Below, piece by piece: positions 2,254-19,420 of a stretch of 64,000 nucleotides of DNA. Position 1 is the first letter of the stretch; each line of letters opens with the position of its first letter. The notes beneath the pieces are model-generated. The model did no database searches, had not been told where the DNA came from, and saw only the letters and a program-made list of their open reading frames with translations. The DNA lies in assembly GCA_963789955.1 (NCBI GenBank), contig CAWBMV010000017.1, positions 1-64,000 of the forward strand. Direction: 5' to 3'. A program made the translations under genes and the position numbers. The DNA comes from an uncultured Candidatus Rokubacteria bacterium. Its GTDB lineage: Bacteria > Methylomirabilota > Methylomirabilia > Rokubacteriales > CSP1-6.

Positions 2254-3276
2254 ATGCAGAGACTGCTCAGCGCAATAGTTGGCATCGGGCTGCTCGCGTG
2301 GTTCGCGCCCGTTGCCCAGGCGCAGACGCCCGGCGAGGTCTTCCGCAAGGTCGCCCCGTCCGTCGTGATAATCCGCGCCAAAGGCCGTGACATCAGCACG
2401 AGTGGTCAATCGCGCTTTGCCGAGACGGGCTCGGGCGTGCTGATCTCACCCGACGGCAAGGTGATGACGGCGGCCCACGTCGTGCACTCGATGGACGAGA
2501 TCAGCGTCGAGTTCCTCGGCGGCGAGACCGTCAAGGCTCGCGTGGTGGCCTCGGAGCCGGCCGCCGATCTCTCGCTGCTCCAGCTCGAGCGCGTGCCCGC
2601 GGGCGCCAAGTCGTCGCCCCTCGCCAACTCGGATCCGATCCAGGTGGGTGATCCGGTCATCATCGTTGGCGCGCCCTATGGGCTCAGTTATTCGTTGAGC
2701 AATGGCTTGATCAGCGCGCGATGGAAGCCGAACACGGTGTACAAGACGATGCCGCTCGCCGAGTTTTTCCAGACCACGGCGACGATCAACACCGGTAACT
2801 CCGGCGGGCCGATGTTCAACATGAACGGCGAGGTGATCGGCATCGTCAGCCACAACATCTCCAAGAGCGGCGGTAGCGAGGGGCTGGGCTTCGTCGTGAC
2901 CATCAACACCGCGAAGAAGCTCCTGCTCGAGCGTAAGTCGTTCTGGGCCGGCCTCGAAGGCCAGATCCTGTCGGACGCCGAGGCTGACCTGCTGAACCTC
3001 CCGCCCGGGTCGACGGGTTTCATCGTGAAGACCGTGGCCAAGGATTCGCCGGCCGCCCAGCTCGGGCTTCGAGGCGCTACGATGGTCGTCAATCTTGGCA
3101 GCGGCGAAGTTCCTCTCGGCGGCGACATCATCCTGACCGTCGAGGGCATCAAGGCGGAAGCGGCCAACCTGGCGAAGGTTCGGGATCAGTTGTCCGCCAA
3201 GGCCTCGGGGAGCCCGTTCAAGGTCACCATATTTCGCGCCGGCAAGGTGCTCGAGCTGACCGGGCGGGTGCCATGA
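2254..3276 (+). CDS. HtrA/DegP-family trypsin-like serine protease with C-terminal PDZ domain, secreted
   Basis: ATG at 2254 preceded by aaggagga. Signal peptide 'MQRLLSAIVGIGLLAWFAPVAQA'. Motifs 'TAAHVV' and 'GNSGGPMFN' (catalytic His and Ser). PDZ-like C-terminus. Confidence 0.8.
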   Translation: MQRLLSAIVGIGLLAWFAPVAQAQTPGEVFRKVAPSVVIIRAKGRDISTSGQSRFAETGSGVLISPDGKVMTAAHVVHSMDEISVEFLGGETVKARVVASEPAADLSLLQLERVPAGAKSSPLANSDPIQVGDPVIIVGAPYGLSYSLSNGLISARWKPNTVYKTMPLAEFFQTTATINTGNSGGPMFNMNGEVIGIVSHNISKSGGSEGLGFVVTINTAKKLLLERKSFWAGLEGQILSDAEADLLNLPPGSTGFIVKTVAKDSPAAQLGLRGATMVVNLGSGEVPLGGDIILTVEGIKAEAANLAKVRDQLSAKASGSPFKVTIFRAGKVLELTGRVP

Positions 3277-4622
3277 GCGGAACTCACCGCAGACTCGGCG
3301 CGCGTGCGCTCGCCGTCGCCGCGACGATCTTCCTGGCGTGCGGCTGCGCCGGCCGATCGGGCAGCGCCGCCACCGCGGGCGGCGAGCTGCCGCCGCCGGT
3401 TCGCCAGGTGCTGCCCAACGGCCTCAGGCTGATCGTGCAGGACCATCGCGCCGCCGATATCGTCGCGGTCTATCTATACGTGGGCGTCGGGGTCCGCTAC
3501 GAGCGGCCGGATCAGCTCGGCTACTCCCACTTCCAGGAGCACATGCTCTTCAAGGGCACGGACAAGTGGGGACCGGGGTACATCGATCGAGCGGTGGAGG
3601 GCGTCGGCGGGCGCACGAACGCGACGACCTCGTTCGACTTCACGGATTTCTACATCTTAGTGCCCAAGGAGTCCATGGAAACGGGGATGCAGACGCTTGC
3701 CGACATGGCGTTCCGCTCGACGTTCGATCCCGCCGAAGTCGCGCGCGAGCGCGAAGTGATCTTCGAAGAGGCGAACATCGAGACCGACAACCCGAAGACC
3801 GCCATCATCCGCCAGCTCTACGGGATGGTCTTCGCCGATAACCCGTACGGCTACCCGGTACTGGGCACGCCCGCCACGATGAACGCCGCCACGAGCGCGA
3901 TCCTCAAGGCGTACAACAAGAAGTACTACACGCCGGAGAACATGACGCTCGTGGTCGCGGGGCCGGTCGACGTCAAGACCGTGCGCGGCATGGTCGACCG
4001 CATCTGGGGCGTGATCCCGTCCACCGGGTACACGTCCGTGCCGGCGCCGAAGCCCGGCCCGCTCACCGGCGTTGTGCGAAAGTCTGTCGAGCGGCCGGAG
4101 CAGCAGGCCCGGCTCGCGCTCGGCTGGCAGGCGCCGCCGACGAACGATTTCACTGGCGACACGGTCGACCTGCTCACGACAATCCTCGCGGGCGCCGAGA
4201 GCTCGCGGCTGGCGGTTCGGTTGCGTGACAAGGAGCGCCTGGTGTCGTCGATCACGATGAGCTACTCGGCGCAGATGGGCGGAGGCATCGTGAGCGTCAG
4301 GGCCGAGCTGGAGGCCAAGGATCTCGAACGGGTGGAGCAGATCATCCTCGAGGAGATCGCACGCATGCAGGCGGAGGGACCAACCGAGGAGGAGCGACAG
4401 CTCGCCGTGGTCCGGGCCGAATCCCAGCACGCCTTCGACACCGAGACGTCCGACGGGCTCGCCAACGCCTACGCGATCGCTGAGACGACCTGGACGCTCG
4501 ACGCGGAGCTGGGCTACGTGGACCGGCTGGGCAAGATCACGCGCGAGCAGATCCGCGACGCGGCCCGCCGTTATCTCTCGCGCACCGACTACGCGCGGAT
4601 CTCGTTCCAGCCCAAGCCATGA
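3273..4622 (+). CDS. M16-family zinc peptidase (pitrilysin/insulinase-like), catalytic subunit
   Basis: Inverzincin motif 'HFQEHMLFKGT' (HxxEH). Signal-peptide-like N-terminus. Stop overlaps the next start (atga). Confidence 0.8.
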   Translation: MSGTHRRLGARALAVAATIFLACGCAGRSGSAATAGGELPPPVRQVLPNGLRLIVQDHRAADIVAVYLYVGVGVRYERPDQLGYSHFQEHMLFKGTDKWGPGYIDRAVEGVGGRTNATTSFDFTDFYILVPKESMETGMQTLADMAFRSTFDPAEVAREREVIFEEANIETDNPKTAIIRQLYGMVFADNPYGYPVLGTPATMNAATSAILKAYNKKYYTPENMTLVVAGPVDVKTVRGMVDRIWGVIPSTGYTSVPAPKPGPLTGVVRKSVERPEQQARLALGWQAPPTNDFTGDTVDLLTTILAGAESSRLAVRLRDKERLVSSITMSYSAQMGGGIVSVRAELEAKDLERVEQIILEEIARMQAEGPTEEERQLAVVRAESQHAFDTETSDGLANAYAIAETTWTLDAELGYVDRLGKITREQIRDAARRYLSRTDYARISFQPKP

Positions 4623-5935
4623 CCCGCCGACGGCTCGCCGCGTTCTTGCTCGGCCTGTTGGTCGTCGCCCTCGTCACGCCGGGGCTCGCCGCCGCTGAGG
4701 GTGAACCGGGCGCCGTCACGCGCACGAAGCTGACCAACGGTATGACCGTGCTCGTGCGCGAGAATCCGACCGCTCCCGTCGTCGCGATCTCGTTGATGCT
4801 CCGGATGGGCACGCGCTGGGAGACGCGCGCGAACGCGGGCATCTCCAACTTCCTGCAGCTCATGGTCGTGCGTGGCTCGACGTCGCTCGACGGCACCCAG
4901 ATCGTCAGCGCCGCTGATCGCATGGGCGGGAGCATCGATGCCTACGCCGACGCGGACTACGCCGAGATCCCGGCGACCGCGCTCTCACGCTACTGGGGCG
5001 AGATGCTCGATCTCGTCGCCGAGGTGGCCCTGCGGCCGTCGCTCCCGGACAACACGACGCAGGCGGTCCGCGACTTTCTCGTGCGGCAGATCCGCAACCG
5101 CGCCGACAAGCCGTATGACGCGGCGTTCGACAGCCTGATGGGCCGGACCTACGGCGACAACCCGTATGCCTGGGATCCGATCGGGCTCAAGGAGAGTCTC
5201 GAGCGAATGGATCGCGCGGCGCTGCTCGCGCACTATCGGCGCCACTACGTGCCGGGGGCGATGGTGCTGGCGGTCAGCGGCAAGGTGAAGAACGGGGAAG
5301 TGGTGGCACGAGCCGAGCGTCTGTTCGGTGCGCTGCCGGCCGCGCCGGCGCCCGCGCCGAACGCGACGGCGCCACCGGCACCGGCAACGGGGCGGGCGGT
5401 GCTCACGGTGCCGGGCGCGCAGGCTCAGATCCTCATGGGCGGTCTCGCGCCGTCGCTGACGGATCCCGATCTCGCGGCGATGAAGGTCGCGAGCGCCGTG
5501 CTGGGCGGCGGGCTGGCGAGCCGATTCTTCTCGGAGCTTCGTGACAAGCAAGGGCTGGCGTACACGACCGCGGCGCGCGAGCCGATGCGCGTGGGCGCCG
5601 GGTATTTCCTCGCCCTGCTCGGCACAGCGCCGGCCAACAAGGACAAGGCCGAGGCGGCGCTACGCGAGCAGCTCGAGCGAATCCAAGGTCAGGCCGTTCC
5701 CGATGATGAGCTCCGAGTGGCGAAGGCGTATCTGCTCGGCAGTCTTGCGATGGACCGCCGGACCAACGCGCGTCAGGCCTGGTACATGGCCTCGCTCGAA
5801 GTCGCGGGTGTCGGCCACGAGTTCCTCGATCGTTACGTGGTCCAGGTTCGCGCGGTGACAGCGGCCGATGTTCAGCGGGCTGCGCAACGGTATCTGGCGA
5901 CAGTTCGCACCGTTGTGGCGGAACCGGCGCCCTAG
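4619..5935 (+). CDS. M16-family peptidase paralogue lacking HxxEH (non-catalytic partner subunit)
   Basis: M16 fold. 'NFLQLMVVRGS' replaces HxxEH. Translationally coupled to the upstream M16 gene. Signal peptide present. Confidence 0.75.
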   Translation: MTRRRLAAFLLGLLVVALVTPGLAAAEGEPGAVTRTKLTNGMTVLVRENPTAPVVAISLMLRMGTRWETRANAGISNFLQLMVVRGSTSLDGTQIVSAADRMGGSIDAYADADYAEIPATALSRYWGEMLDLVAEVALRPSLPDNTTQAVRDFLVRQIRNRADKPYDAAFDSLMGRTYGDNPYAWDPIGLKESLERMDRAALLAHYRRHYVPGAMVLAVSGKVKNGEVVARAERLFGALPAAPAPAPNATAPPAPATGRAVLTVPGAQAQILMGGLAPSLTDPDLAAMKVASAVLGGGLASRFFSELRDKQGLAYTTAAREPMRVGAGYFLALLGTAPANKDKAEAALREQLERIQGQAVPDDELRVAKAYLLGSLAMDRRTNARQAWYMASLEVAGVGHEFLDRYVVQVRAVTAADVQRAAQRYLATVRTVVAEPAP

Positions 5936-5947
5936 ACTACGAGAGGA

Positions 5948-6343
5948 CTACTCGGACCTCGGCGGGACCTTGACCCAGGCGTCGCTGCAGCTCGGAACGC
6001 TTGGGTAATAGGCCTTCGTGTTTGGGCAGTAGTACCAGAACGACTCCGGCGGCTGTTGCTCTTGCTCATTGCGCTCGACGTAGACCGGTGCCGGCTGCAC
6101 GACGACTTGCGGCTGCTGATAGTAGTAAGGCGGCGGATAGTAGCCTCCCCATCCATAGCCCCACCACGGACCGCCCCAGCCCCACCCGGGTCCGACGACG
6201 ACCACGCCACGGCCATGGCCATGGAAGCCGCCGTGATGAACGCCGCCGCCTCCGCCGCCACCGCGGCCCCACGCGAAGCTAGAGCCCACGGAAACGAGCA
6301 GGACCAGAATCGTGAGAAGCGCGATCGCTACTGACTTTTTCAC
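5948..6343 (-). CDS. small secreted Gly/Trp/Tyr-rich protein (hypothetical)
   Basis: GTG start at 6343 with GGAG 8 nt upstream. Signal peptide 'KKSVAIALLTILVLLVSVGSSFA'. Low-complexity 'GGGGGGGVHHGGFHGHGRGVVVVGPGWGWGGPWWGYGWGGYYPPPYYY'. C-terminal two-Cys segment 'YYCPNTKAYYPSVPSCSDAW'. Confidence 0.5.
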   Translation of the reverse strand: MKKSVAIALLTILVLLVSVGSSFAWGRGGGGGGGVHHGGFHGHGRGVVVVGPGWGWGGPWWGYGWGGYYPPPYYYQQPQVVVQPAPVYVERNEQEQQPPESFWYYCPNTKAYYPSVPSCSDAWVKVPPRSE

Positions 6344-6399
6344 GTCTAACTCACCACTCCCAGCGTAGACCCGCGACCCACGAGGTGTCAACCTCACGA

Positions 6400-7700
6400 T
6401 GTGCCTCATTAGAACTGTTACCGGCGAAGAGGTCGATGCCTCACAAAGGGTGTTACCGAGCAGGACACCCGAAGGGAGGCCCGGTGACCAAGCCAGCGCG
6501 TGCGGAGTACACGGAAGCCGTTCGGCGGCGATACGTGGCCGCGGAGCGCGAAATGAAGAGCCGGATCCTGGATGAGTATTGCCGCACGCTGCGCTGTCAT
6601 CGCAAGGCGGCGATCCGCGCCTTGGCTCGGACGCCGCGGCCACGGCGGCGCGCCGGTCGCCGGGTGCAGTACGATCGCAGCCTCGTGCCCACGCTCGAGC
6701 GCCTCTGGCACATCAGCGATCGGCTGTGTGGCAAGCTGCTCGCGGCGGCGCTGCCGACCCTCGTCCCCGCGCTCGAACGCCACGGACTGCGGATCGCCCC
6801 CGACCACCGCCGCCAGCTGCTCGCGCTCAGTCCGGCCACCCTCGATCGCTTCCTCCGGCCGTGCCGCACGCGTCTGGGCCGGCAGCCGTATCGCGTCTCC
6901 CTGGCGGCGAGCGCGTTGAAGCAGCAGATCCCGGTGCGGACGTGGAGCGAATGGGCCGGCAGCCAGCCCGGCGCGGTCCAGGCCGATCTGGTCCTGCATT
7001 GTGGGGAGTCGACCGAGGGCTTTCACCTCGCGAGCCTGGTGGCGGTCGACGTCGCCAGCGGCTGGATCGAGCTCGAGCCGATCTGGGGCGTGGGCGCCGT
7101 CCGCGTGGGCGCCGGCGTGCAGCATGTGCACCAGCGCCTGCCCGTCCCCCTGCGCGAATGGCACACCGACAACGGCAGCGAATTCCTCAACCGGGGACTA
7201 CTGCGCTATTGCCGTCGGCATAACATCCGTGTCACCCGCGGCCGGCAATATCGCAAGAACGATCAGGCGTGGGTGGAACTGCGCAACTGGCTGGCGGTGC
7301 GTCGGCTCGTGGGTCGGGATCGCTACAGCTCGCACATCGCCTTCGGCCTGCTCCGACGCCTGTACGACTTGCTGCGCGTGCAACTGAACTTCTTCCGGCC
7401 CTTTCGCAAAGTGCTGCACACCCGCCGCGTCGGCAGTAAACGCGTGCGCGCCTATGACCGCGCCCAGACGCCGTATCAGCGCTTGCTCGCCGCCGGCGCC
7501 CTCGCGGCGGACGGCCGTCGTGCCCTCGAGGCTCAGTTTCTGGCCGTGGACCCTGCGACGCTCGCCACCCACATCGGCGATACTCTCGATCGGCTCTGGA
7601 AATGTGGCGACTCGCGCCGCCGGGTCGCCGAATCTTCGGTAACTCCATTGTGAGGCATTGCCGTCGGTCCCCGGTAACACCTACGGCTGAGGCATCACGC
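6400..7700 (+). mobile_element. insertion sequence carrying a DDE (rve-type) transposase with imperfect terminal inverted repeats containing TGCCTCA..GTTACCG modules
   Basis: Left end 'tgcctcattagaactgttaccgg' and 'tgcctcacaaagggtgttaccg'. Right end (reverse complement) 'tgcctcagccgtaggtgttaccgg'. Single transposase ORF between them. Confidence 0.5.
6436..7653 (+). CDS. DDE transposase/integrase (rve catalytic core)
   Basis: Motifs 'VQADLVLHCGES', 'LVAVDVASGW', 'HTDNGSEF' and 'QAWVE' (D,D,E-like spacing). ATG at 6436 with gaagagg upstream. Confidence 0.7.
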   Translation: MPHKGCYRAGHPKGGPVTKPARAEYTEAVRRRYVAAEREMKSRILDEYCRTLRCHRKAAIRALARTPRPRRRAGRRVQYDRSLVPTLERLWHISDRLCGKLLAAALPTLVPALERHGLRIAPDHRRQLLALSPATLDRFLRPCRTRLGRQPYRVSLAASALKQQIPVRTWSEWAGSQPGAVQADLVLHCGESTEGFHLASLVAVDVASGWIELEPIWGVGAVRVGAGVQHVHQRLPVPLREWHTDNGSEFLNRGLLRYCRRHNIRVTRGRQYRKNDQAWVELRNWLAVRRLVGRDRYSSHIAFGLLRRLYDLLRVQLNFFRPFRKVLHTRRVGSKRVRAYDRAQTPYQRLLAAGALAADGRRALEAQFLAVDPATLATHIGDTLDRLWKCGDSRRRVAESSVTPL

Positions 7701-7774
7701 CTCAGGGCAAACCAGCCGGTTTCCGGTAATTCGTCGCCAGCCCCTGAGCCTCAGGATCAGCCCCCACTTGGAGC

Positions 7775-9088
7775 CTAGAAGGTGAAGGGGATCGGCAGGG
7801 GCGGGCGCCCGAACGGCCGGCCGGCCTTCACCGTCAGGAACGGGACGAGCTTCTTCGTCCCGTTTCGCTTGTTGTTGCGCGTGTCGACGAACTCGACGGG
7901 CCCATCCAGGAGGTCGAAGATCGCGACGTCCGCGGGGGCACCGAGGCGCAGGGTGCCCAAACCGGGCACGCGACCGATGATCTTCGCCGGCTCGACGGTC
8001 GCTTTGGCCACGACGTCCTCGAGAGGCATGCCGAGGTTGAGGAACTTCGACATCACGTTGGGCAGGGTCGGATATCCGGGTGTGTTGATGCTGACGGCGT
8101 GGATGTCGCTGGAGATCGTGTCGGGCACGGCGCCCTGCTGGAGCGCCGGCTCGCACACCGTGTAGTCGAAGCTCCCACCGCCGTGTCCGACGTCGAAGAT
8201 GACTCCGCGCTGCTTGGCCGCCTTGGCCGCGGGCAGGAGCTGGCCGTTCTGCACGGTGTTGTTGCCGGCGCCGCTGTAGGCGTGCGTCAGGATGTCGCCC
8301 GGCCGCAGGAGATCCAGCAGATCGGACAGCGCGCCGGGCGCCGCCCCGATGTGGCACATGACCGGTACGCCCTTGCCGACCATCTCGGCGGCGCGGATCG
8401 CCCGCCGCAGCGGCTCGAGGCCGTTCTGGCCGACCACCGTGTCGGTGATCCGCACTTTCACGCCGAGCGCGATGTCGGGATTCTCGATGACCGCCTTGGC
8501 GCAGCCGTCCACGTTGGCGTAGTCGATGTTGAGCATCTCGCCGGGCGCCAGTCCGCCGGCGAGGCCGATCGACGCGATGTGGACGAAGGCGAAGATGCGC
8601 GTCCGCGCCTGCGGAATCGCGTAGTGGCGGACCGCGCCGAACGTCTGCCATCCCGCATCGCCGGCCGACACGGCGGTGGTCACCGCGGTGATCCCGACCA
8701 TCTCGTCGGCCGGCAGCCCGATGCCGAGATGCGGGACGAGGTGCGTATGCAGATCGACGAGCCCCGGCGTGACGAGCTTGCCGGCGGCGTCGATGCGCTG
8801 CACCGCGCGAGCGGCCGGGATGCTCGTCTCGACCGCGGCGATCTGACCGTGCTTGATCCCGATGTCTCGCTTGCCGCGGAGCTTCTGACTGGGATCGAGC
8901 ACCTCGCCGTTCGCGATCACCAGGTCGTACTTGAGCGCGGGGTCTTTCGGATCGAAGCCGTGCGGCGCGGGCGCGCCGGCCTGGGCGACGAGCACGGGGG
9001 CCGCCTGGGCGGACGTCTGCGCGGTGAGCGTCGCGCCGGCGGCGGCTGCCGACGTCGAGACGATGAAGTTGCGTCGTGAGACTTCCAT
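7775..9088 (-). CDS. metal-dependent amidohydrolase-family protein with Tat signal
   Basis: N-terminus 'MEVSRRNFIVSTSAAAAGATL' (twin-arginine). Motif 'LVDLHTHL'. RBS gaggag before ATG. Confidence 0.75.
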   Translation of the reverse strand: MEVSRRNFIVSTSAAAAGATLTAQTSAQAAPVLVAQAGAPAPHGFDPKDPALKYDLVIANGEVLDPSQKLRGKRDIGIKHGQIAAVETSIPAARAVQRIDAAGKLVTPGLVDLHTHLVPHLGIGLPADEMVGITAVTTAVSAGDAGWQTFGAVRHYAIPQARTRIFAFVHIASIGLAGGLAPGEMLNIDYANVDGCAKAVIENPDIALGVKVRITDTVVGQNGLEPLRRAIRAAEMVGKGVPVMCHIGAAPGALSDLLDLLRPGDILTHAYSGAGNNTVQNGQLLPAAKAAKQRGVIFDVGHGGGSFDYTVCEPALQQGAVPDTISSDIHAVSINTPGYPTLPNVMSKFLNLGMPLEDVVAKATVEPAKIIGRVPGLGTLRLGAPADVAIFDLLDGPVEFVDTRNNKRNGTKKLVPFLTVKAGRPFGRPPLPIPFTF

Positions 9089-9240
9089 CACGTGGTCTCC
9101 TCGCCCGTGCTGCATGGCCAGGTGAGCTGCCTGTCGCGGCGGCGAGCGGGCACACCGCGTTCCGTTGCCGCAGGGATGCTATGCGGTGAGACGGCAGGCG
9201 TCAACCACGGTTGGCGCGATCGCGGCGCTTGAAAGACCAA

Positions 9241-9271
9241 ACCGCGTACCGGTGATCACCACCGGTACGCG
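9241..9271 (-). terminator. putative intrinsic terminator of the histidine-kinase gene (13-bp perfect stem, 5-nt loop, T-rich tail on minus strand)
   Basis: Forward strand 'ccgcgtaccggtg atcac caccggtacgcgg'. Followed on the minus strand by 'tttggtctttc'. Confidence 0.35.
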
Positions 9272-9464
9272 GCCTGGCCTCACTCGAAATCCGCGACGCC
9301 GGTTACGACTGAGGAATACCGAGCGCCGGAGCGCTCACGCTGTCGCGACCGTTCTCCAGGTGACCGGCGAGACGGCCACGCAGAGTGTCAGGACGAGGCC
9401 GAGCGGGAAACGCTGCATGCTCTGGCCGTGAGTGTAAAGCGGGAGGGTTACGTGGCGATGACGG

Positions 9465-11792
9465 CTAGGGCGACGGCACCTGAGGAGGGCGCGCAGCGAC
9501 GCTCGCGACGATCGTCGTCAGCTCGCCCGGATCGACCGGCTTCGGAACGTGCATGCTGTAGCCGGCGGCCAGCGACAGGATCCGATCCTGCGTCCGCCCA
9601 TAGGCCGTCAGCGCGATGGCCGGCGTTCGACCTCCCTGGGCTGGATCGAGCGCGCGCACCTTCCGGATGAGCGAATAGCCGTCCTCTCCGGGCATCTCGA
9701 TGTCCGAGACGAGCACATCGGGACGCCATTCCCGGAGCGCGTCCAACGCCTCGGGCGCCGCGAAGCATCTCCGCACGCCCGCTCCGGAGCTCTCGAGAAT
9801 CGCGGTGACGAGCTCGAGGGCATCGGGGTCGTCGTCGACCACCAGGATCTTGAGCCCGTCCAGACGCGTTCCGGCGGGCAGCGGCTCGGCGGACGGCGCC
9901 GTCGGATGCACGCGTGGGAGCGGCCCCAGCGGAAACTCCGCGATCGCCAGCGGCAGCCTGACGATGAAGGTCGCGCCGCGTGTGGCGCCGGCGCTCTGCG
10001 CAACGACGGTGCCGCCGTGAAGCTCGACGAGGTGCTTGACGAGCGCCAGGCCCAGACCGAGGCCGGCGTGGGTTCGCGTGCTCGAGCTGTCCGCCTGGCG
10101 AAATCGCTCGAAGATGACGGGCAAGACGTCCGGCGCGATGCCCTGTCCGGTGTCGCTGACGACGATCTCGATGTGGGAGTTGATGCGCTGCAGGTGCACC
10201 TGGATCTGGCCGCCCTTCGGCGTGAATTTCACCGCGTTGATGAGCAGGTTCCACACGATCTGCTGGAGCCGATCTGGATCGCCCGTGATCGGGCCGGCGC
10301 GCGGATCCAGCACGCTCTGCAGCCGGATGCCCTTGGCTTCCGCGGCCGGCCGAACGGCGTCGGCCGCCGCCTCCACCACGGTGCTCAGGTCCACCTTGCG
10401 GACGTCGAGCCGCATCTTTCCCGTGATGACGCGTGAGACGTCGAGCAGGTCGTCGACCAGCTGGACCTGCGCGTTGGCGTTGCGTTCGATGACTTCCAGC
10501 GCCCGCGTCACATCCGCCTCGCCCTGGATTTGCCCGGCGCGAAGCATGCGCGCCCAACCGTACACCGCGTTCAGTGGAGTCCGCAGCTCGTGCGACAGCA
10601 CCGCCAGAAACTGATCCTTCGCCCGATCGGCCGCCTCCGCCGTCGCGCGCGCCTCCTGTTCCTTGCGCAGGAGCGCCTCGCGGTCGACCTCGACGCCCGT
10701 GCGCTCCTCGGCGGCGGCGACGAGCGCGGCGGCGACATCGCGAATCTCCGGAATGGATGTGTCCGGCGACTTCGGCGCCTCGCGGCGGCCGAGCGCCTGG
10801 GCAGCACTGCGGAGCTCATCGATCGGGCGCGTGATGCTTCGGGCGACCCACAAGGCCGCGAGCGATCCAAGCGCGATCGAGAGCAGGATGCTGCCACCAT
10901 AGATCGCCAGCGACCGGTAGCCGGCAGCTTCGACCACGGCCGTGGGAATCCCGAGGGCCACCAGCCAGCCGCTCGGCTCGATTCGGCTGTAGGGCGTGTA
11001 GATTCGCTCGCCCTCGAGCGTCAACGTCTCGCCGAATCCCGCGCGCTCCTGCTTTGCGACGAGGGCGCGCAGGGTTGGTGAGGCCGCGCCACCCAGGCTT
11101 GCCTCGTGCGCCCTCGAACGCGCCACCCGCAAGCCATTGGCGTCGAAGACCGAGATGACCCAGTCGCCCGGCGCACCATGGCGGGCGACCACGTCGCGGA
11201 TCTCCTCGGGCTTGACGACCGCGGTCAGCACGTAGCGGATCTCTCGGTTGCGGAGGACGGGAACACGCACGGGAAACTGCAGAACGCCGTCCGAGCCCTT
11301 GACGAGATTGCCCACCGCTGGCGCACCGGTGCGGATGACGCGATCGAAGCTCTCCCGGTCGTTGATCGGCGGGATCTGACTGCCGTCGCCGAGCCGCGTG
11401 TCGACGAGCCGAGCTCCGGACGGGTCGGTGAGTGTCACGCCGGCCCACTGGGGCTGCGTGTCGAGGACGCGCCGCGCCCGCTCACGAAACGCCGACAGAT
11501 CGTTGCCGTCGAGGGTGAAGGTGGTCGCGAGCGATTCGAGAACCGAGATGGTGCTCCGCAGCTCCGCGTCGACGGCCGTGCCGATGGCCCGGACGAGCTC
11601 GAGCCCGACGCGTTCGGCCTGAACACGCTGCTGCTGGGCGAGGACATGAAGGCCGATGCCCGACATGATGGCCAGCGGCACGATGCCGGCGCAGGCGAGC
11701 AGCAAGAGCCTCCGGCTGAGAGGCGCCCCTGTCGGTCTGTCCCGGCGTTCAGTCATTGACGCACACACGGCCGCGGATGGCCGCTCGCGCAT
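9465..11792 (-). CDS. hybrid sensor histidine kinase / response regulator (periplasmic sensor, HisKA, HATPase_c, C-terminal receiver)
   Basis: H-box 'LSHELRTPLNAV'. N, G1 and G2 boxes ('NLLINAVKFT', 'DTGQGI', 'GLGLGL'). Receiver 'ILVVDDDPDALE...DVLVSDIEMPGEDGY'. N-terminal TM followed by a roughly 280-aa extracytoplasmic domain. Confidence 0.8.
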   Translation of the reverse strand: MRERPSAAVCASMTERRDRPTGAPLSRRLLLLACAGIVPLAIMSGIGLHVLAQQQRVQAERVGLELVRAIGTAVDAELRSTISVLESLATTFTLDGNDLSAFRERARRVLDTQPQWAGVTLTDPSGARLVDTRLGDGSQIPPINDRESFDRVIRTGAPAVGNLVKGSDGVLQFPVRVPVLRNREIRYVLTAVVKPEEIRDVVARHGAPGDWVISVFDANGLRVARSRAHEASLGGAASPTLRALVAKQERAGFGETLTLEGERIYTPYSRIEPSGWLVALGIPTAVVEAAGYRSLAIYGGSILLSIALGSLAALWVARSITRPIDELRSAAQALGRREAPKSPDTSIPEIRDVAAALVAAAEERTGVEVDREALLRKEQEARATAEAADRAKDQFLAVLSHELRTPLNAVYGWARMLRAGQIQGEADVTRALEVIERNANAQVQLVDDLLDVSRVITGKMRLDVRKVDLSTVVEAAADAVRPAAEAKGIRLQSVLDPRAGPITGDPDRLQQIVWNLLINAVKFTPKGGQIQVHLQRINSHIEIVVSDTGQGIAPDVLPVIFERFRQADSSSTRTHAGLGLGLALVKHLVELHGGTVVAQSAGATRGATFIVRLPLAIAEFPLGPLPRVHPTAPSAEPLPAGTRLDGLKILVVDDDPDALELVTAILESSGAGVRRCFAAPEALDALREWRPDVLVSDIEMPGEDGYSLIRKVRALDPAQGGRTPAIALTAYGRTQDRILSLAAGYSMHVPKPVDPGELTTIVASVAARPPQVPSP

Positions 11793-12036
11793 GGTCGCGC
11801 GGACATGATCCGGCGACCGCGGCGTCCAGGAATCCAACAACGGGGCGCACCCGCTGCAAAAGGAAAGTTCATCTCCAGGATCGGGCCAATCGGCTTGCCC
11901 ATACTAGATCGGAGGTCAACGCCGGCGCCACTCGCAGACGGACGCCAAGGCTCTTGACCGGTTTTGATCCCTCACGCTAGGCTCGGCGCGACCGTCCTCC
12001 AGGGTATCGGCCGTCCTGATCGCCAACGATCGGATC

Positions 12037-14164
<2,128 letters not shown>

Positions 14165-14165
14165 C

Positions 14166-15602
14166 TCAGCGACCGGGCGTGGGAATCTGCATCAAGAGAT
14201 TGCTGCCGCTGCCAGTGACGAACTGCGGCAGCTTGCCGTCCCACTTCGACAGGTACTGCTGCTGGATCAAGGTGGCCGTGAGCGACTGCGTGACCTTCGC
14301 GTTGTACTCGGCCTCCGCGGCCGCGCGCAGGCGGAGGGCGGCCGCCTCACCCTCGGCGCGCGCCTGGAGGGCGGCGCCTTCGCCGCGCTCACGGGCGACT
14401 TTTGATTCCGCTTCGCGCTTGGCCTGGTCGACCTCGTAGCGCTTCTGCTCGGCGACCTGCTGGGCGATCTGCTTGCGCTCGACCGCTTGCTCGAAGTCCT
14501 TGTCGAAGCGGATGTCCTTGATCGACACCTCGGTGACCTGGATGCCGTATTTCAGGAGCCACTTGGTCAGGCCGTCCTGGACGTCCGCCTTGATCCTCGG
14601 GCGCTGCTGGAGGATGTCGTTGGCGGCGTGGACCGCCGTGTTGGCCTTCAGCACCTCGGCGGCCGCCGGGTCGATGATCGACTGTTCGTAGCGCAGGCCG
14701 ACGGTGCGGTACACCTCGGGCGCGCGGTCGTCGATCAGCCGATAGTTCAGCGCCATGACCGCGTGCACCGCCTGGATGTCGACCGACGCGGCGTCGTATC
14801 GCGCCTCGTGCTTCTGAACGCGGGTGTCCATCCGGATGACGTCCTTGTACGGCAGGACGAAGTGCAGCCCGTTGTAGAGCGGCACCTTCTCGACGTTGCC
14901 GAACACGGTGACCACACCGATGTGGCCGGAATCGACCACCACGAAGCTCGAGAGCACGATGATGAGCAGCCCCAGGAACACGCCGCCGCCTTGCACGGCG
15001 CGGCCGATCGCGGCCAGCGGCAGCCGAGGTCGCGCCGCGTCGCGGATCTGAGCCGCCATCGCCACGAGAACTCGGCCGACGAGGAGACCGCCGACGATCA
15101 ACACTGTCGCGAGGATCAGCTTGCCCATCTGTTCCTCCCGTGCCTGACTCAGCTCTTCCCGACTTCGTAGCCCCTGGCCTTGATGCAGTCGGCGAAAATC
15201 TGGCGGCGTTTCTCGGTGTTGTGCCTCCAGCTGCACGAGGTTCTCCCGGATCCAGCGCGAGATGAATCCCAGGTCGGCCTCGGACTCGCGCTTCGCCAGG
15301 CCGTCGCAGTCGAGCACCTCGAGCAGCACGCGCGTCGGCTCTATCTCGGTCGAGCGGGCCAATCGCAGGGTCTCGGAGCTCGAGCCCACCCCCGGTATCG
15401 TCTCGTAGCCCGCCGCGATCAGGCATGCGGCGAAGCCGGCGAGCGGGGCGGCGGTCTGCTTCGACCACTCGGTGCATCGCTTACGGTCGGCATCGATCTG
15501 GTCGGTGCTCTGCCCCTTGAGGGGTGTCGCTTTGAGATTGGCGATGGTGGTGCAGCCTGCCAGGATCAGGACAGCCGAGAGGGCCAGCACGGCCTTCGTC
15601 AT
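14166..15602 (-). CDS. lipoprotein N-terminal domain fused in frame to a 2-TM SPFH/band-7 (prohibitin/HflC-like) protein, or two adjacent genes lacking an intervening stop
   Basis: Lipobox 'LILAGCTT' after 'MTKAVLALSAV'. About 160 aa later 'MGKLILATVLIVGG' is preceded by GGGAGG. SPFH core 'IGVVTVFGNVEKVPLYNGLHFVLPYKDVIRMDTRVQ' and coiled-coil tail. No stop codon between the two modules. Confidence 0.6.
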   Translation of the reverse strand: MTKAVLALSAVLILAGCTTIANLKATPLKGQSTDQIDADRKRCTEWSKQTAAPLAGFAACLIAAGYETIPGVGSSSETLRLARSTEIEPTRVLLEVLDCDGLAKRESEADLGFISRWIRENLVQLEAQHRETPPDFRRLHQGQGLRSREELSQAREEQMGKLILATVLIVGGLLVGRVLVAMAAQIRDAARPRLPLAAIGRAVQGGGVFLGLLIIVLSSFVVVDSGHIGVVTVFGNVEKVPLYNGLHFVLPYKDVIRMDTRVQKHEARYDAASVDIQAVHAVMALNYRLIDDRAPEVYRTVGLRYEQSIIDPAAAEVLKANTAVHAANDILQQRPRIKADVQDGLTKWLLKYGIQVTEVSIKDIRFDKDFEQAVERKQIAQQVAEQKRYEVDQAKREAESKVARERGEGAALQARAEGEAAALRLRAAAEAEYNAKVTQSLTATLIQQQYLSKWDGKLPQFVTGSGSNLLMQIPTPGR

Positions 15603-15606
15603 CGGC

Positions 15607-17313
15607 TCAGAGCGTAGCACGCGACGTCGGACTTCCGACGACTCCGAGAACGGCCGCGCGAGGCGCGGTGAGGCGCTGGGACAGCTCCGGATCCATCACG
15701 ATCTCGCGGACGAACTGCTGAAGCGCGAGATTCAGAAACGCCTGGTAGCCGCTGACGTCCTGCTCCGGCGAGCCGCCCGCGGAGTCGCGCGGGATCCGAG
15801 CGGAGATGCTCCGGGTCAGGAGCAGATCTCCCCGATCGTCGTAGAGCCACACGATGCCGCTGACGTGGGCCTGCAAGGTCCACCGCGTCTCCGTCGAGAA
15901 GTTGTGGATCTCGCCTGCCACGGCGAACGGCGTCGAGACGGCCGTCGCGCGCGGGACGAACTCCCGGTCCGGCGCGGCTACCGCGGCAACGCCGCGCTCG
16001 GTGAAACCCGCCACCAGGCTTTCGACCAGCGCGTCGGGCCATGGAGTGGCGGAGAGCACCTTGGCCAGCCGCGAGCCGTAGCCGTCGTACATGCCGCCGA
16101 CGCGGTGCGGATCGCGGTCACCTTCGTCGCCGCGGCGGTCGGCGAATCGGAAGACGGTCACCGGCTGAGCCCCGGCGAGGCGCTCGATCCGGGAATCGGG
16201 CAGATAGCGAAGCCGGACGGTCTGATCGCTCACGCAGGCGGTGAACACCGCCGCGATCATCGCCAGCGCCACCGTTCGCACCCCGGACTGGCGCATCAGA
16301 CCGCCGTCCGGTGTGCGCCGTGCCGGACGGCGATAGAGCACGAGGTCCTCGCTCGCCCCCACCACCGGTTTCAAGGTGCCCGCGGCCCGGTCGGCCTCGA
16401 GGAGGACGAAGCGCAAGTGATAGCGGTCTCCCTGCCGGTCGATGACGATGCGCCATGCGAGGTTCCGGCCTCCGTCGTCGCACGTCGTGGTGCCGCACAT
16501 GCACGTGATCAACCGCTTCTCCAGCTGGTGCGTCTTCGCCAGCCGGCGGCGGACCCGCCGATCGCCGATGAGATCGCTGTAGGTTCGCTCGCCGAGGTAG
16601 TGATAGTGCTCGTGCCCGAACATGACGAGGTCGATGTCGGCGCGCAGCATGCTCTCGAGTGCGTCGGTCACGTTCTTGAGCTTCGTCCATCGATTGAATC
16701 GGTGGCTGTCGGGGATCGCGACGTGGTGGTGCAACAGCAGGAGTCTGAGATCGTAGGGCTCTTCGCGGCGCGTGTCGTCGTCGTATACCGTCTGCAGCCA
16801 GTCGAGATCGTCGTCGTGCACCTTGCCCGTGGCGACCGACGCCCAGCCGGCGTCGCCCATCGAGTCGATCGCGAGCACCCGGATTCTGAGATCGCGCGAT
16901 GTCAACCAGCCGGCGGCGCGCGGACGGCCGCGATTTCCGAACCAGTCGCCGAAGACGGATTCGAAGTTGGTGATCTGATTGCTGATCGGGAGGTACCGTC
17001 CGGCGTAGCGATCGTGGTTGCCGGGCACCAGAAAGAGCCTGGCCGGGTCCGCGAGGCCCAAGCCGATCGCCGCCGACGCGCCCGGGCGCGGGACGGCTCC
17101 CGTCAGGAACTGCCTGGCGGCCTCCAGCGACTGGACCTGTCCGTCCGTCGAGATGTCCCCGGTCACCACGACATAGTCGGCCGGCTCGGCCTTCCAGTAT
17201 CCGTCGAGCGCGGTGAACAGATCCGGATCATGCCGGCGCGGCAGCCCGCGTTCCGGTGAGAACAGCTCGCCGGCGACGTGGAGATCGGAGATGTGCAAGA
17301 TCGAAAGCGGCAT
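15607..17313 (-). CDS. calcineurin-like metallophosphoesterase with C-terminal lipoprotein-like module (in-frame, no stop between)
   Basis: N-terminus 'ILHISDLHV' and 'GNHDRY' (metallophosphoesterase motifs). After about 340 aa comes 'MRQSGVRTVALAMIAAVFTACVSDQ' (lipobox) and a roughly 220-aa domain. Confidence 0.65.
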   Translation of the reverse strand: MPLSILHISDLHVAGELFSPERGLPRRHDPDLFTALDGYWKAEPADYVVVTGDISTDGQVQSLEAARQFLTGAVPRPGASAAIGLGLADPARLFLVPGNHDRYAGRYLPISNQITNFESVFGDWFGNRGRPRAAGWLTSRDLRIRVLAIDSMGDAGWASVATGKVHDDDLDWLQTVYDDDTRREEPYDLRLLLLHHHVAIPDSHRFNRWTKLKNVTDALESMLRADIDLVMFGHEHYHYLGERTYSDLIGDRRVRRRLAKTHQLEKRLITCMCGTTTCDDGGRNLAWRIVIDRQGDRYHLRFVLLEADRAAGTLKPVVGASEDLVLYRRPARRTPDGGLMRQSGVRTVALAMIAAVFTACVSDQTVRLRYLPDSRIERLAGAQPVTVFRFADRRGDEGDRDPHRVGGMYDGYGSRLAKVLSATPWPDALVESLVAGFTERGVAAVAAPDREFVPRATAVSTPFAVAGEIHNFSTETRWTLQAHVSGIVWLYDDRGDLLLTRSISARIPRDSAGGSPEQDVSGYQAFLNLALQQFVREIVMDPELSQRLTAPRAAVLGVVGSPTSRATL

Positions 17314-17331
17314 CGCCGGCGGGGTCGTCTC

Positions 17332-17538
17332 CTAGCGGTTCTGGTAGTACCGCGTGCCGCCGAGCGCCGGCGGCAGACTGAGGAAGTCGCCCACGCCCTC
17401 CGGGCCCCTGAACTGATTGTTGTCGGCGACGGAAACCTCGACCCGCTTCCAGCCCTTGCCCCAGCCTCCTCCCGCGGTCACGACCGCGCCGGCCGCGAGA
17501 AACGATTCAAGGGCGAATGTTCTCGTTTTCGTCCTCAT
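17332..17538 (-). CDS. small hypothetical protein (68 aa), first gene of the metallophosphoesterase/SPFH operon
   Basis: ATG at 17538. 'MRTKTRTFALESFLAAGAVVTAGGGWGKGWKRVEVSVADNNQFRGPEG...'. Ends 19 nt before the metallophosphoesterase start. Confidence 0.35.
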   Translation of the reverse strand: MRTKTRTFALESFLAAGAVVTAGGGWGKGWKRVEVSVADNNQFRGPEGVGDFLSLPPALGGTRYYQNR

Positions 17539-17894
17539 AGACGTGTCTCTTCTCGGAGCGGGCGCGATGGCCACCGGGACCTCAAGCACGCTAAAGCGGG
17601 TGGCCGGGCTCGTCAATCGGTCTTGGGCGGCTTCGCCCGTCGTCGGCGGGCGTCGAGATTTTTTACGATTACGCGACGCGGGCGGGCGGCCGACCCGCGG
17701 AACCGATTGAATTCAAACACACCTCGTTATTGGCATCGGACATGCCCGCGAGCACGACTGTGAAGCGCGTTACAGACAGTGTTGCTGTCCGAGTAAGAGG
17801 CCTCCCGCGAGGTGTCAGGAGTTCTCACGGGGATGGGGAAGAGAGGGCCGAACGCTTGCGGGTCTTCGAGGACTCGGGTACGTTACGCGACGGC

Positions 17895-18334
17895 ATGACT
17901 CGCCGGCTCGTCGCGCTCGCGGTCGTCGGAGTGCTCGCTTGCAGCCCGCTCATGGCCTACGCGGATCCGCCCGACCCGACCTGGATCCCTGGATTCTGGG
18001 ACGACGCGGACTTCGACGACGTGATCGTTCGCGTCACCTCGACATCCAGCGTCGCCGAGACCCACGCGCTCGGTACGCTCGAGCCGCACTGGGTTGCCGG
18101 TCTGGACCGTGCCGGCGGCCGACGACCGGCCGGCTCCGAGCCCGGTGTTCGCCCCGCATCAGCCCCGAGGTCCTCCGCACGTCTGAGCCTCCCGCAGGAC
18201 GGCTGCCGCGCGCGGCGACGGCTCGAGATGACGCGAGTCGCGAGAACCGTCTGTGTCGTATCGATCTTGCTCCCAGGGCGGGAGCGCGACCTCGCGACGG
18301 CGCTCAGAGTCATTGGTTCTCAGAGGAGGAGCTT

Positions 18335-18338
<4 letters not shown>
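17895..18338 (+). CDS. small secreted/membrane-anchored hypothetical protein overlapping the start of the sigma-54 activator
   Basis: '[47 protein letters not shown]...'. Stop TGA overlaps the GTG of the downstream activator (ttGTGAag). Confidence 0.4.

Positions 18339-19420
<1,082 letters not shown>

What the first reader, a model, noticed from the sequence alone, without database searches (positions are those of the whole stretch)
14166..17538. Minus-strand operon: small protein, metallophosphoesterase, lipoprotein module, lipoprotein module, SPFH, with no stop codons between modules
Four recognisable modules sit in a single continuous frame pair. These are a calcineurin-like phosphoesterase, a lipobox-containing domain (AAVFTACVSDQ), a second lipobox domain (LILAGCTT) and a 2-TM SPFH/band-7 protein. 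The third and fourth have their own RBS-like sequences (GGGAGG before MGKLIL). However, the sequence has no stop between the phosphoesterase and its lipoprotein domain, or between the second lipoprotein and SPFH. Either these are unusual multi-domain fusions, such as a phosphoesterase anchored by an internal lipoprotein module, or stops have been lost to indels. SPFH scaffolds paired with a phosphoesterase and a 68-aa leader gene do not form a described system.
Basis: partly seen in the sequence, partly recalled or inferred. Interest (0 to 1): 0.6.

Follow-up and report, generated by a model that had tools for sequence, protein, structure and literature searches.

The report
Four genes fused by stray bases
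The apparent giant "fusion proteins" are four ordinary, separate genes that run together only because this sequence has two extra single bases that every related genome lacks. It is therefore a sequence-quality artefact (or fresh damage), not a new multi-domain protein or system.

Summary
The literal observation is correct. On the minus strand, ORF 17313-15607 (568 aa) joins a metallophosphoesterase (MPE) to a lipoprotein. ORF 15620-14166 (484 aa) joins a second lipoprotein to an SPFH protein. Neither has a stop in between.

Five related Rokubacteria/Methylomirabilota loci (83-97% nucleotide identity) encode separate genes. These are a 111-aa small lipoprotein, a 332-338-aa MPE, a ~230-aa lipoprotein 1, a 150-aa lipoprotein 2 and a ~322-aa SPFH. 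Among 13, 42 and 73 database clusters for MPE, lipoprotein 1 and lipoprotein 2, none has a fused architecture.

The fusions come from two window-specific one-base insertions, at about 16311 and about 15236. Deleting the first restores the TGA that overlaps lipoprotein 1's ATG. The window carries the same lesion elsewhere:
- five insertions break the adjacent PQQ alcohol dehydrogenase;
- one breaks an ABC permease;
- an SBP_bac_5 gene is split.

Relatives are intact at every site where a comparator was available. The cause is most likely sequencing or assembly error, less likely recent decay.

The "68-aa leader" is a deletion remnant of the 111-aa lipoprotein. The gene set is a mosaic across relatives: MPE, lipoprotein 1 and SPFH come and go. 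It is therefore not an obligate system. Interest is low.

The parts
17332..17538 (-). Remnant (68 aa) of a 111-aa small lipoprotein gene. It has an in-frame deletion of about 43 codons at about 17461-17467 that removes the lipobox Cys and the central segment.
   Evidence: Full-length 110-113-aa versions are present in L001, L002, L004, L006, L090 and L091, and in L095. L005 carries an independent 46-codon deletion with different borders.
16296..17313 (-). Calcineurin-like metallophosphoesterase gene with no signal peptide. Its true stop is TGA 16298-16296, overlapping the ATG of the next gene (TGATG). One extra base at about 16311 (ACACCGG versus ACACGG) takes that stop out of frame.
   Evidence: Pfam PF00149 scores 54 bits against a cut-off of 21.5. 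Homologues are 332-347 aa and cover only 58-59% of the 568-aa ORF. DNA alignments locate the insertion. Deleting base 16311 gives ...LYRRPARRTRTAV*, 338 aa, like P0001. The catalytic motif residues are invariant in alignment A1.
16311..16311 (-). Window-specific single-base insertion that fuses the phosphoesterase ORF to lipoprotein 1.
   Evidence: It is absent from L004 (96% identity), L095 (97%), L005 (90%) and L001 (84%).
15607..16296 (-). Lipoprotein 1 (229 aa; signal peptide MRQSGVRTVALAMIAAVFTA|C). Its predicted fold is like the PqiC/DUF330/PelC/LptE outer-membrane lipoproteins.
   Evidence: There are 42 homologue clusters. Nearly all are stand-alone proteins of 208-288 aa, a few are shorter fragments, and two of 329-336 aa carry read-through tails. 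The Cys is invariant. The AlphaFold model has pLDDT 87.5. The top Foldseek PDB hits are 2iqi (XCC0632, DUF330, E 1.4e-8) and PqiC 8q2c.
15149..15602 (-). Lipoprotein 2 (150 aa when repaired; lipobox LILAG|C; four further invariant Cys). It is broken by one extra base at about 15236. The true C-terminus SWRHNTEKRRQIFADCIKARGYEVGKS* is read in another frame, with stop TGA at 15151-15149.
   Evidence: Three-frame translation. tblastn shows the frame changing from -3 to -1 at 15237/15232. The repaired protein hits 73 clusters, about 60 of them 146-153 aa at 88-100% coverage, with a best identity of 91%. See also alignment A3.
15236..15236 (-). Window-specific single-base insertion (CTCGTGCAGCTGG). 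It shifts lipoprotein 2 out of frame, past its stop and into the SPFH frame.
   Evidence: It is absent from L095, L005 and L001.
14166..15128 (-). SPFH/Band-7 gene (320 aa) with its own GGGAGG ribosome-binding site (15141-15136) and ATG at 15128. It has two N-terminal hydrophobic segments (about residues 4-24 and 47-66), the SPFH domain and an Ala/Glu-rich helical tail.
   Evidence: Pfam PF01145 scores 107 bits. It is 93-96% identical in a single frame to the separate 321-324-aa genes of L001 and L005.

Best explanation
The region encodes five separate genes, not two fused polypeptides. These are a small lipoprotein (here a deletion remnant), a cytoplasmic calcineurin-like metallophosphoesterase, a PqiC/DUF330-fold lipoprotein, a 150-aa Cys-rich lipoprotein and a membrane SPFH protein.

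The stop-less junctions have two causes.
1. One extra base at about 16311 lies about 13 nt before the phosphoesterase's TGA. That TGA normally overlaps the next gene's ATG as TGATG. The extra base puts the phosphoesterase into lipoprotein 1's frame.
2. One extra base at about 15236 throws lipoprotein 2 out of frame 27 codons before its end. The ribosome-independent reading then skips lipoprotein 2's TGA (15151-15149). It crosses about 30 stop-free codons, including the SPFH ribosome-binding site, and lands in the SPFH frame.

The same kind of lesion, single-base insertions, breaks several neighbouring genes that are intact in relatives. The insertions are therefore most likely consensus errors of the sequence or assembly.

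Shown: the insertions, their uniqueness to this window, the separate genes in all relatives, and the broken neighbours. Inferred: that the cause is sequencing or assembly error rather than real mutation.
For: 1. Orthologous loci have separate genes. L001 has 111, 332, 236, 151 and 324 aa. L005 has MPE 4809-5825, lipoprotein 1 5825-6514, lipoprotein 2 6501-6974 and SPFH 6994-7959. In L004 the MPE stop overlaps lipoprotein 1's ATG.
2. Multiple alignments show the bases at about 16311 and about 15236 only in the window. They are absent from L095 (97% identity), L005 and L001, and the first is also absent from L004 (96% identity).
3. Deleting base 16311 restores a 338-aa MPE ending ...RRTRTAV*, like P0001's ...WRTRAVV*.
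4. The repaired lipoprotein 2 aligns over 100% of its length with 150-151-aa proteins at up to 91% identity. It recovers the invariant W125, N128, C139 and G144.
5. No fused architecture appears among 13 MPE, 42 lipoprotein 1 or 73 lipoprotein 2 clusters.
6. Neighbouring genes carry the same lesion.
   - The PQQ alcohol dehydrogenase at 12037-14164 lies in five frame pieces that match consecutive profile positions. It has five one-base insertions relative to the intact 739-aa ORF of L005.
   - The ABC permease has an extra base at 21350 that is absent from L005, L001 and L006.
   - An SBP_bac_5 gene is split at about 26755.
7. In coding sequence, L005, L001 and L006 show no frameshifting singletons in the same alignments. 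The window's are all insertions. That pattern is unlike natural gene decay, which is biased towards deletions (general knowledge).
Against: - No reads are available, so error and real mutation cannot be separated directly.
- The insertions are not in long homopolymers, so they do not match the classic homopolymer error signature.
- They are unevenly spread: five in the 2.2-kb dehydrogenase and none in 2318-5930. This could instead mean local real decay.
- The window-specific 129-nt in-frame deletion in the small gene looks like a real mutation. L005 has an independent one, so some real degradation of this locus does occur.
- The third nearby extra base (15145, intergenic) is shared with L095 and is therefore genuine.
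Confidence: 0.8

Rival explanations
1. The insertions are real mutations in this strain. The locus and its neighbours would then be decaying into pseudogenes, and the fused ORFs are accidental products of that decay rather than functional fusions.
For: - The small lipoprotein gene carries a window-specific in-frame 129-nt deletion. L005 has an independent deletion of the same segment, and L093/L094 lack the gene. The locus is therefore evolutionarily labile.
- The gene content of the locus is a mosaic among relatives.
- The frameshifts cluster in the PQQ dehydrogenase.
Against: - Frameshifts also hit unrelated genes on both sides, namely the ABC permease at 21350 and SBP_bac_5 at about 26755.
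- All the polarised coding-sequence lesions are one-base insertions and none are deletions.
- Substitution divergence from relatives shows no sign of relaxed constraint. Protein identities of the unbroken parts remain 90-96%.
- Noisy long-read assemblies of this same population exist publicly (L095).
Confidence: 0.15
2. These are genuine multi-domain proteins. One would be a phosphoesterase anchored by an internal lipoprotein or transmembrane module. The other would be a lipoprotein fused to an SPFH scaffold.
For: The only support is the uninterrupted ORFs in this window.
Against: - No homologue has this architecture.
- The 96-97% identical relatives have stops.
- The second fusion discards lipoprotein 2's conserved 27-residue C-terminus, including the invariant Cys139. 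It replaces it with about 30 residues translated out of frame across a spacer and a ribosome-binding site.
- An internal lipobox after 336 cytoplasmic residues could not be processed as a lipoprotein signal (general knowledge of Sec/Lgt/LspA processing).
Confidence: 0.03
3. Programmed ribosomal frameshifting or recoding joins or separates the modules.
For: None was found. The idea was considered only because the genes lie in adjacent frames.
Against: - Relatives need no frameshift to make the separate proteins.
- The shift sites are not conserved and have no slippery heptamer (CACACCGGA; CGTGCAGCT).
- The same lesions occur in unrelated neighbouring genes.
Confidence: 0.01

Closest known systems
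Chimeric or split ORFs created by single-base indel errors in high-GC (long-read or unpolished) assemblies
   Same: One-base insertions that are unique to one assembly merge adjacent genes or split single genes. Long stop-free alternative frames in 68% GC DNA hide the lesion. Relatives are intact.
   Different: The sequencing technology of the window is unknown, and the insertions are not homopolymer-associated. A real-mutation origin cannot be excluded without reads.
SPFH (stomatin/prohibitin/flotillin/HflK-C) operons, classically SPFH-NfeD pairs and HflK-HflC-FtsH
   Same: The locus encodes a membrane-anchored Band_7 protein with N-terminal hydrophobic segments and a C-terminal helical Ala/Glu-rich tail. 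It is encoded next to small envelope proteins.
   Different: There is no NfeD partner and no second SPFH paralogue in the locus. The HflK and HflC NCBIfam scores are far below cut-off, at 42.7 against 159.4 and 28.3 against 134.4. The neighbours are lipoproteins and a phosphoesterase, and their linkage to the SPFH gene is variable.
PqiC / DUF330 (ABC-transport auxiliary) and PelC/LptE/CsgG-type outer-membrane lipoproteins
   Same: The lipoprotein 1 model (pLDDT 87.5) matches XCC0632/DUF330 (E 1.4e-8, TM 0.54/0.71) and E. coli PqiC (E 2.4e-7), then PelC, CsgG and LptE. It has an N-terminal lipobox.
   Different: Sequence identity is only 11-16%. There is no Pfam hit to the DUF330/ABC_trans_aux family at E <= 5. 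There are no PqiAB/MCE, Pel or Lpt genes nearby. The resemblance is at fold level only.
Class III cyclic-nucleotide phosphodiesterases (CpdA/Rv0805) and other calcineurin-like metallophosphoesterases
   Same: The protein has the PF00149 domain with all metal-binding motifs: D10-x-H12, G52-D53, G98-N99-H100-D101, H195/H196 and G233-H234-x-H236. JGI labels its homologues 'CpdA'.
   Different: The CpdA equivalog PRK11148 scores 19.4 bits against a cut-off of 225. There is no sequence match to any solved structure at E <= 0.01. The substrate is unknown. The weak N-terminal similarity to anti-phage DS9 phosphoesterase (51.7 bits against 420) is generic to the motif I-III region.

Membership tests
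Natural multi-domain fusion protein (MPE+lipoprotein; lipoprotein+SPFH) | The same domain architecture is found in homologues | tested here: not met
   MPE homologues are 332-347 aa and cover 58-59% of the ORF. Full-length lipoprotein 1 homologues are 208-288 aa, or 329-336 aa only through read-through into an alternative frame. About 60 of the 73 lipoprotein 2 clusters are 146-153 aa, and the longest is 234 aa. SPFH is a separate 321-324-aa gene in L001, L005, L006 and L093.
Natural multi-domain fusion protein (MPE+lipoprotein; lipoprotein+SPFH) | The junction is conserved in close relatives, with no stop at the module boundary | tested here: not met
   L004, L005, L001 and L095 all have stops at the boundaries. 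The window differs by one extra base at each junction.
Calcineurin-like metallophosphoesterase (Pfam PF00149) | Profile score above the gathering threshold | tested here: met
   54 bits against 21.5, over residues 4-237.
Calcineurin-like metallophosphoesterase (Pfam PF00149) | Metal-binding motifs DxH, GD, GNH(D/E), H and GHxH | tested here: met
   D10, H12, G52, D53, G98, N99, H100, D101, H195, H196, G233, H234 and H236 are invariant in the 11-sequence alignment A1 and present in the window protein.
CpdA 3',5'-cAMP phosphodiesterase (NCBIfam PRK11148) | Equivalog score above the cut-off | tested here: not met
   19.4 bits against a cut-off of 225.
SPFH / Band 7 (Pfam PF01145) | Profile score above the gathering threshold | tested here: met
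   107.4 bits against 23.6, covering profile positions 2-176 of 176.
HflK/HflC FtsH modulators | Equivalog score above the cut-off, plus a paired HflK and HflC | tested here: not met
   TIGR01933 scores 42.7 against 159.4 and TIGR01932 scores 28.3 against 134.4. There is only one SPFH gene in the locus.
SPFH-NfeD operon | An adjacent NfeD-family gene | tested here: not met
   No NfeD hit on any of the neighbouring proteins in Pfam at E <= 5, and none in the precomputed Pfam calls of related loci.
Bacterial lipoproteins (Lgt/LspA substrates) | An N-terminal signal peptide ending in a lipobox [LVI][ASTVI][GAS]C with a conserved Cys | tested here: met
   Lipoprotein 2 has LILAG|C and Cys17 is invariant in A3. 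Lipoprotein 1 has VFTA|C (LTAC, LAGC or LTGC in homologues) and Cys22 is invariant in A2. The full-length small protein has AGG|C. Actual lipidation is not testable here.
PqiC / DUF330 ABC-transport auxiliary lipoprotein | Sequence-profile membership and a PqiAB/MCE gene context | tested here: not met
   No Pfam hit at E <= 5. No MCE or PqiAB genes in any context examined. Only fold similarity was found.
Known anti-phage defence systems (PADLOC; NCBIfam DS8/DS9) | A significant full-length match to a defence-system protein model | tested here: not met
   PADLOC gives only weak partial hits, the best being E 3e-6 over about 100 N-terminal residues of the MPE. DS9_1 scores 51.7 bits against a cut-off of 420.

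The most novel reading that the evidence does not exclude
Once the artefactual fusions are set aside, the underlying cluster might still be a genuine, undescribed envelope module of Rokubacteria. The cluster is small lipoprotein, cytoplasmic metallophosphoesterase, PqiC-fold lipoprotein, Cys-rich lipoprotein and SPFH, lying next to a divergently encoded sigma-54 activator that lacks an N-terminal regulatory domain.

In such a module an SPFH membrane scaffold would cooperate with dedicated lipoproteins. Lipoprotein 2 is the constant partner, and its model weakly resembles an SPFH domain. The module would then represent a non-NfeD partner class for bacterial SPFH proteins.
Probability: 0.15. Interest if true: 0.4.

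Novelty: not a real feature. Interest (0 to 1): 0.1.

Why it matters
- It removes a false lead. The "multi-domain fusions" should not be catalogued as new architectures.
- It flags the whole window as carrying scattered one-base insertions. Other odd ORF structures in it, such as split or over-long genes, should be treated with the same suspicion.
- A minor positive result is that the locus documents a variable gene neighbourhood in uncultured Rokubacteria/Methylomirabilota. Several uncharacterised lipoprotein families occur there, one with a PqiC-like fold, sometimes next to an SPFH gene.

Tried and rejected
1. A sigma-54 promoter for the operon. The only -24/-12-like match in the intergenic region (17731-17745, TGGCATCGGACATGC) faces the other way. 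It is at chance frequency window-wide (47 found, 48 expected) and is shared only with L090. No sigma-70-like promoter and no terminator of note were found.
2. A defence-system reading. PADLOC and NCBIfam give only weak, partial hits.
3. A solved-structure relative of the MPE by sequence. None was found at E <= 0.01.
5. Homology between the small lipoprotein and lipoprotein 2. hhalign gives a probability of only 34%.
6. A GC3 frame plot to map frameshifts window-wide. It was too noisy to use alone. Protein-profile and outgroup comparisons were used instead.
7. A literature search for an SPFH + metallophosphoesterase + lipoprotein operon. It returned one irrelevant paper.
8. Conservation of the cluster around distant MPE homologues (25-30% identity, L007-L010). 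No SPFH or lipoprotein homologues were found nearby.
Full report
**1. What is in the sequence**

On the minus strand there are two long ORFs.
- ORF 17313-15607 (568 aa) begins with a calcineurin-like phosphoesterase (Pfam Metallophos, residues 4-237, 54 bits). It continues in frame into a lipoprotein-like sequence, ...GGLMRQSGVRTVALAMIAAVFTACVSDQ....
- ORF 15620-14166 (484 aa) begins with a lipoprotein signal, MTKAVLALSAVLILAGCTT. It continues without a stop into MGKLIL..., an SPFH/Band_7 protein (107 bits).
- Upstream lies a 68-aa ORF at 17538-17332.

**2. Three-frame reading already hints at indels**

- Around 15236 another frame reads SWRHNTEKRRQIFADCIKARGYEVGKS*. This repeats the C...GYE motif seen earlier in the same protein. 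It ends in a TGA at 15151-15149, about 20 nt before the SPFH ATG, which has its own GGGAGG.
- Around 16300 another frame ends in a TGA that overlaps the lipoprotein's ATG, the typical coupled TGATG arrangement.

**3. Homologues are never fused**

- A search with the 568-aa ORF found 13 clusters. Eleven are phosphoesterases of 332-347 aa that cover only the first 58-59% of the query. Two are lipoproteins that cover the last 40%.
- Lipoprotein 1 alone finds 42 clusters. Nearly all are stand-alone proteins of 208-288 aa and a few are shorter fragments.
- The two 329-336-aa exceptions owe their extra length mainly to read-through tails in an alternative frame of the next gene.
- Lipoprotein 2, repaired by joining the two frames, finds 73 clusters. 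About 60 of them are 146-153 aa, at 88-100% coverage and up to 91% identity. The sources name them Methylomirabilota or Candidatus Rokuibacteriota.
- The repaired tail restores invariant residues of the family: W125, N128, C139 and G144.

**4. Orthologous loci show separate genes**

| Locus | Identity to window | Gene content |
|---|---|---|
| L001 (27-kb soil contig) | 84% nt | 111-aa small lipoprotein, 332-aa MPE, 236-aa lipoprotein 1 (ATGA overlap), 151-aa lipoprotein 2, 324-aa SPFH; divergent from a sigma-54 activator and an ABC transporter, as in the window |
| L005 (MAG) | about 90% nt over window 22202-11935 | Same five genes, separate and intact; also an intact 739-aa PQQ alcohol dehydrogenase |
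| L004 | 96% nt | MPE stop overlaps lipoprotein 1's ATG |
| L095 | 97% nt | Retrieved with a pattern that tolerated either state of the junction; covers MPE to SPFH |

**5. The lesions**

- Multiple alignments show one extra base in the window at about 16311 (ACACCGG versus ACACGG). It is absent from L004, L095, L005 and L001.
- A second extra base lies at about 15236 (CTCGTGCAGCTGG). It is absent from L095, L005 and L001.
- Deleting base 16311 gives a 338-aa phosphoesterase ending ...RRTRTAV*. This matches the 338-aa P0001, which ends ...WRTRAVV*.
- A third extra base at 15145, in the lipoprotein 2/SPFH spacer, is shared with L095 and so is genuine for this lineage. Together with the 15236 insertion it explains why the shifted frame lands exactly in the SPFH frame.
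- The stop-free stretch required is only about 30 codons. In 68% GC DNA the chance of that is roughly even (my estimate from base composition).

**6. The same lesion breaks neighbouring genes**

- The adjacent PQQ alcohol dehydrogenase (12037-14164, plus strand) lies in five frame pieces. They match consecutive positions of TIGR03075: 4-77, 77-168, 180-369, 383-452 and 464-530.
- Relative to L005's intact ORF, the window has one-base insertions at about 12045, 12345, 12624, 13241 and 13502.
- An ABC permease has an extra base at 21350 that is absent from L005, L001 and L006.
- An SBP_bac_5 gene is split at about 26755. Profile positions 3-198 and 201-365 fall in two different frames.
- Further one-base insertions relative to L006 lie at 26085, 22552 and 1910.
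- In the same alignments the comparators show no frameshifting singletons within coding sequence.
- All polarised coding-sequence lesions in the window are insertions. I take this pattern, together with the spread over unrelated genes, to indicate sequence or assembly error rather than natural decay. Without reads this remains an inference.
- A noisy assembly of the same population exists publicly (L095).

**7. The "68-aa leader"**

- It is the remnant of a conserved 110-113-aa lipoprotein (signal peptide ...AGG|C, then two Cys and a KGWKRVEV motif).
- The window lacks 129 nt (43 codons), including the lipobox Cys.
- L095 and L004 have the full gene.
- L005 has an independent 46-codon deletion with different borders.
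- This lesion is in frame and is probably real.

**8. What the real genes are**

- *Phosphoesterase.* It has no signal peptide. All the metal-binding motifs are invariant. It does not reach the cut-off for CpdA (19.4 bits against 225) or for the DS9 defence model (51.7 against 420). It has no sequence relative among solved structures.
- *Lipoprotein 1.* It models confidently (pLDDT 87.5). It resembles DUF330/XCC0632 and PqiC, then PelC, CsgG and LptE. This is the common outer-membrane lipoprotein alpha/beta fold. There is no sequence-level membership and no matching gene context.
- *Lipoprotein 2.* It has four invariant cysteines beyond the lipobox and no convincing structural relative.
- *SPFH protein.* It has two N-terminal hydrophobic segments separated by an Arg-rich loop. 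It is not HflK or HflC by the curated cut-offs. No NfeD partner is present.

**9. Is it a system?**

The composition is a mosaic across relatives.

| Loci | Genes present |
|---|---|
| L090, L091 | small lipoprotein, lipoprotein 2 |
| L093, L094 | lipoprotein 2, SPFH, DUF3047 |
| L006 | small lipoprotein, MPE, lipoprotein 2, SPFH |
| L002, L003 | small lipoprotein, MPE, lipoprotein 2, DUF3047 |
| L001, L005 and the window | all five genes |

- Lipoprotein 1 homologues at about 50% identity sit in unrelated neighbourhoods.
- Distant MPE homologues have none of the partners nearby.
- No publication describes such an operon.
- The cluster is best seen as a variable envelope-gene neighbourhood in Rokubacteria. 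Lipoprotein 2 is present in every locus sampled, although several of these loci were retrieved through it. A functional partnership between lipoprotein 2 and SPFH remains possible but is unsupported.

**10. Verdict**

- The "unusual fusion" and "new system" readings are not supported.
- The "stops lost to indels" reading is supported.
- The feature is an artefact of single-base insertions (about 0.8). Less likely, it reflects real recent frameshift mutations (about 0.15).
- Interest is low.

Noticed in passing
window 12037-14164 (+): A PQQ-dependent alcohol dehydrogenase with a cytochrome c domain is broken into five frame pieces. The cause is one-base insertions at about 12045, 12345, 12624, 13241 and 13502. 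The L005 orthologue is an intact 739-aa ORF.
   Followed up: yes
window ~21350 (+), ~26755 (-), 26085, 22552, 1910: There are further one-base insertions or frame breaks. An ABC permease is split at 21350, where the extra base is absent from L005, L001 and L006. An SBP_bac_5 gene is split at about 26755. Additional single-base insertions relative to L006 occur at the other sites. An amidase at 39662-41164 matches only profile positions 2-378 of 445 and may also be truncated.
   Followed up: partly
window 17461-17467; L005 4596-4790: The small lipoprotein gene has lost its central roughly 43-46 codons independently in the window and in L005, with different deletion borders. It is missing or degraded in L093/L094.
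   Followed up: yes
P0012, P0013 (public protein clusters): Public gene calls for lipoprotein 1 homologues include 329-336-aa versions. Their C-terminal tails are the alternative-frame translation of the downstream lipoprotein 2 gene (stop TGA replaced by TGG, or read-through). The same kind of over-long ORF therefore occurs elsewhere in this high-GC lineage.
   Followed up: partly
L095 (ERZ1370068 contig-549, 174 kb): This is the closest public relative (97% identity) and is itself indel-noisy. It carries many contig-specific one-base insertions and deletions, including one inside the small gene's ATG. Error-prone assemblies of this population are therefore in circulation.
   Followed up: partly
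window 9206-14166 versus L001/L006: In L001 and L006 the gene that follows SPFH corresponds to window 9088-8816. The window and L005 instead have about 5 kb in between, including the PQQ dehydrogenase. This is a lineage-specific insertion or deletion downstream of the operon.
   Followed up: no
window 17841-18185 (+) and 18293-19417 (+): A 115-129-aa secreted-looking ORF (...[19 protein letters not shown]...) lies here, followed by a sigma-54 activator. The activator consists only of an AAA+ domain and an HTH domain, with no N-terminal sensory domain. This is a PspF-like architecture. Both are divergent from the operon.
   Followed up: no
window 17731-17745 (+): A near-palindromic -24/-12-like motif, TGGCATCGGACATGC, lies in the divergent intergenic region and faces the activator side. 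It is shared with L090 but not with the other relatives, and it is not above chance window-wide.
   Followed up: partly
[not shown]
   Followed up: partly
window 14162-14168: The stop codons of the convergent SPFH gene and PQQ dehydrogenase gene are separated by a single base. No terminator-like structure lies between them.
   Followed up: no
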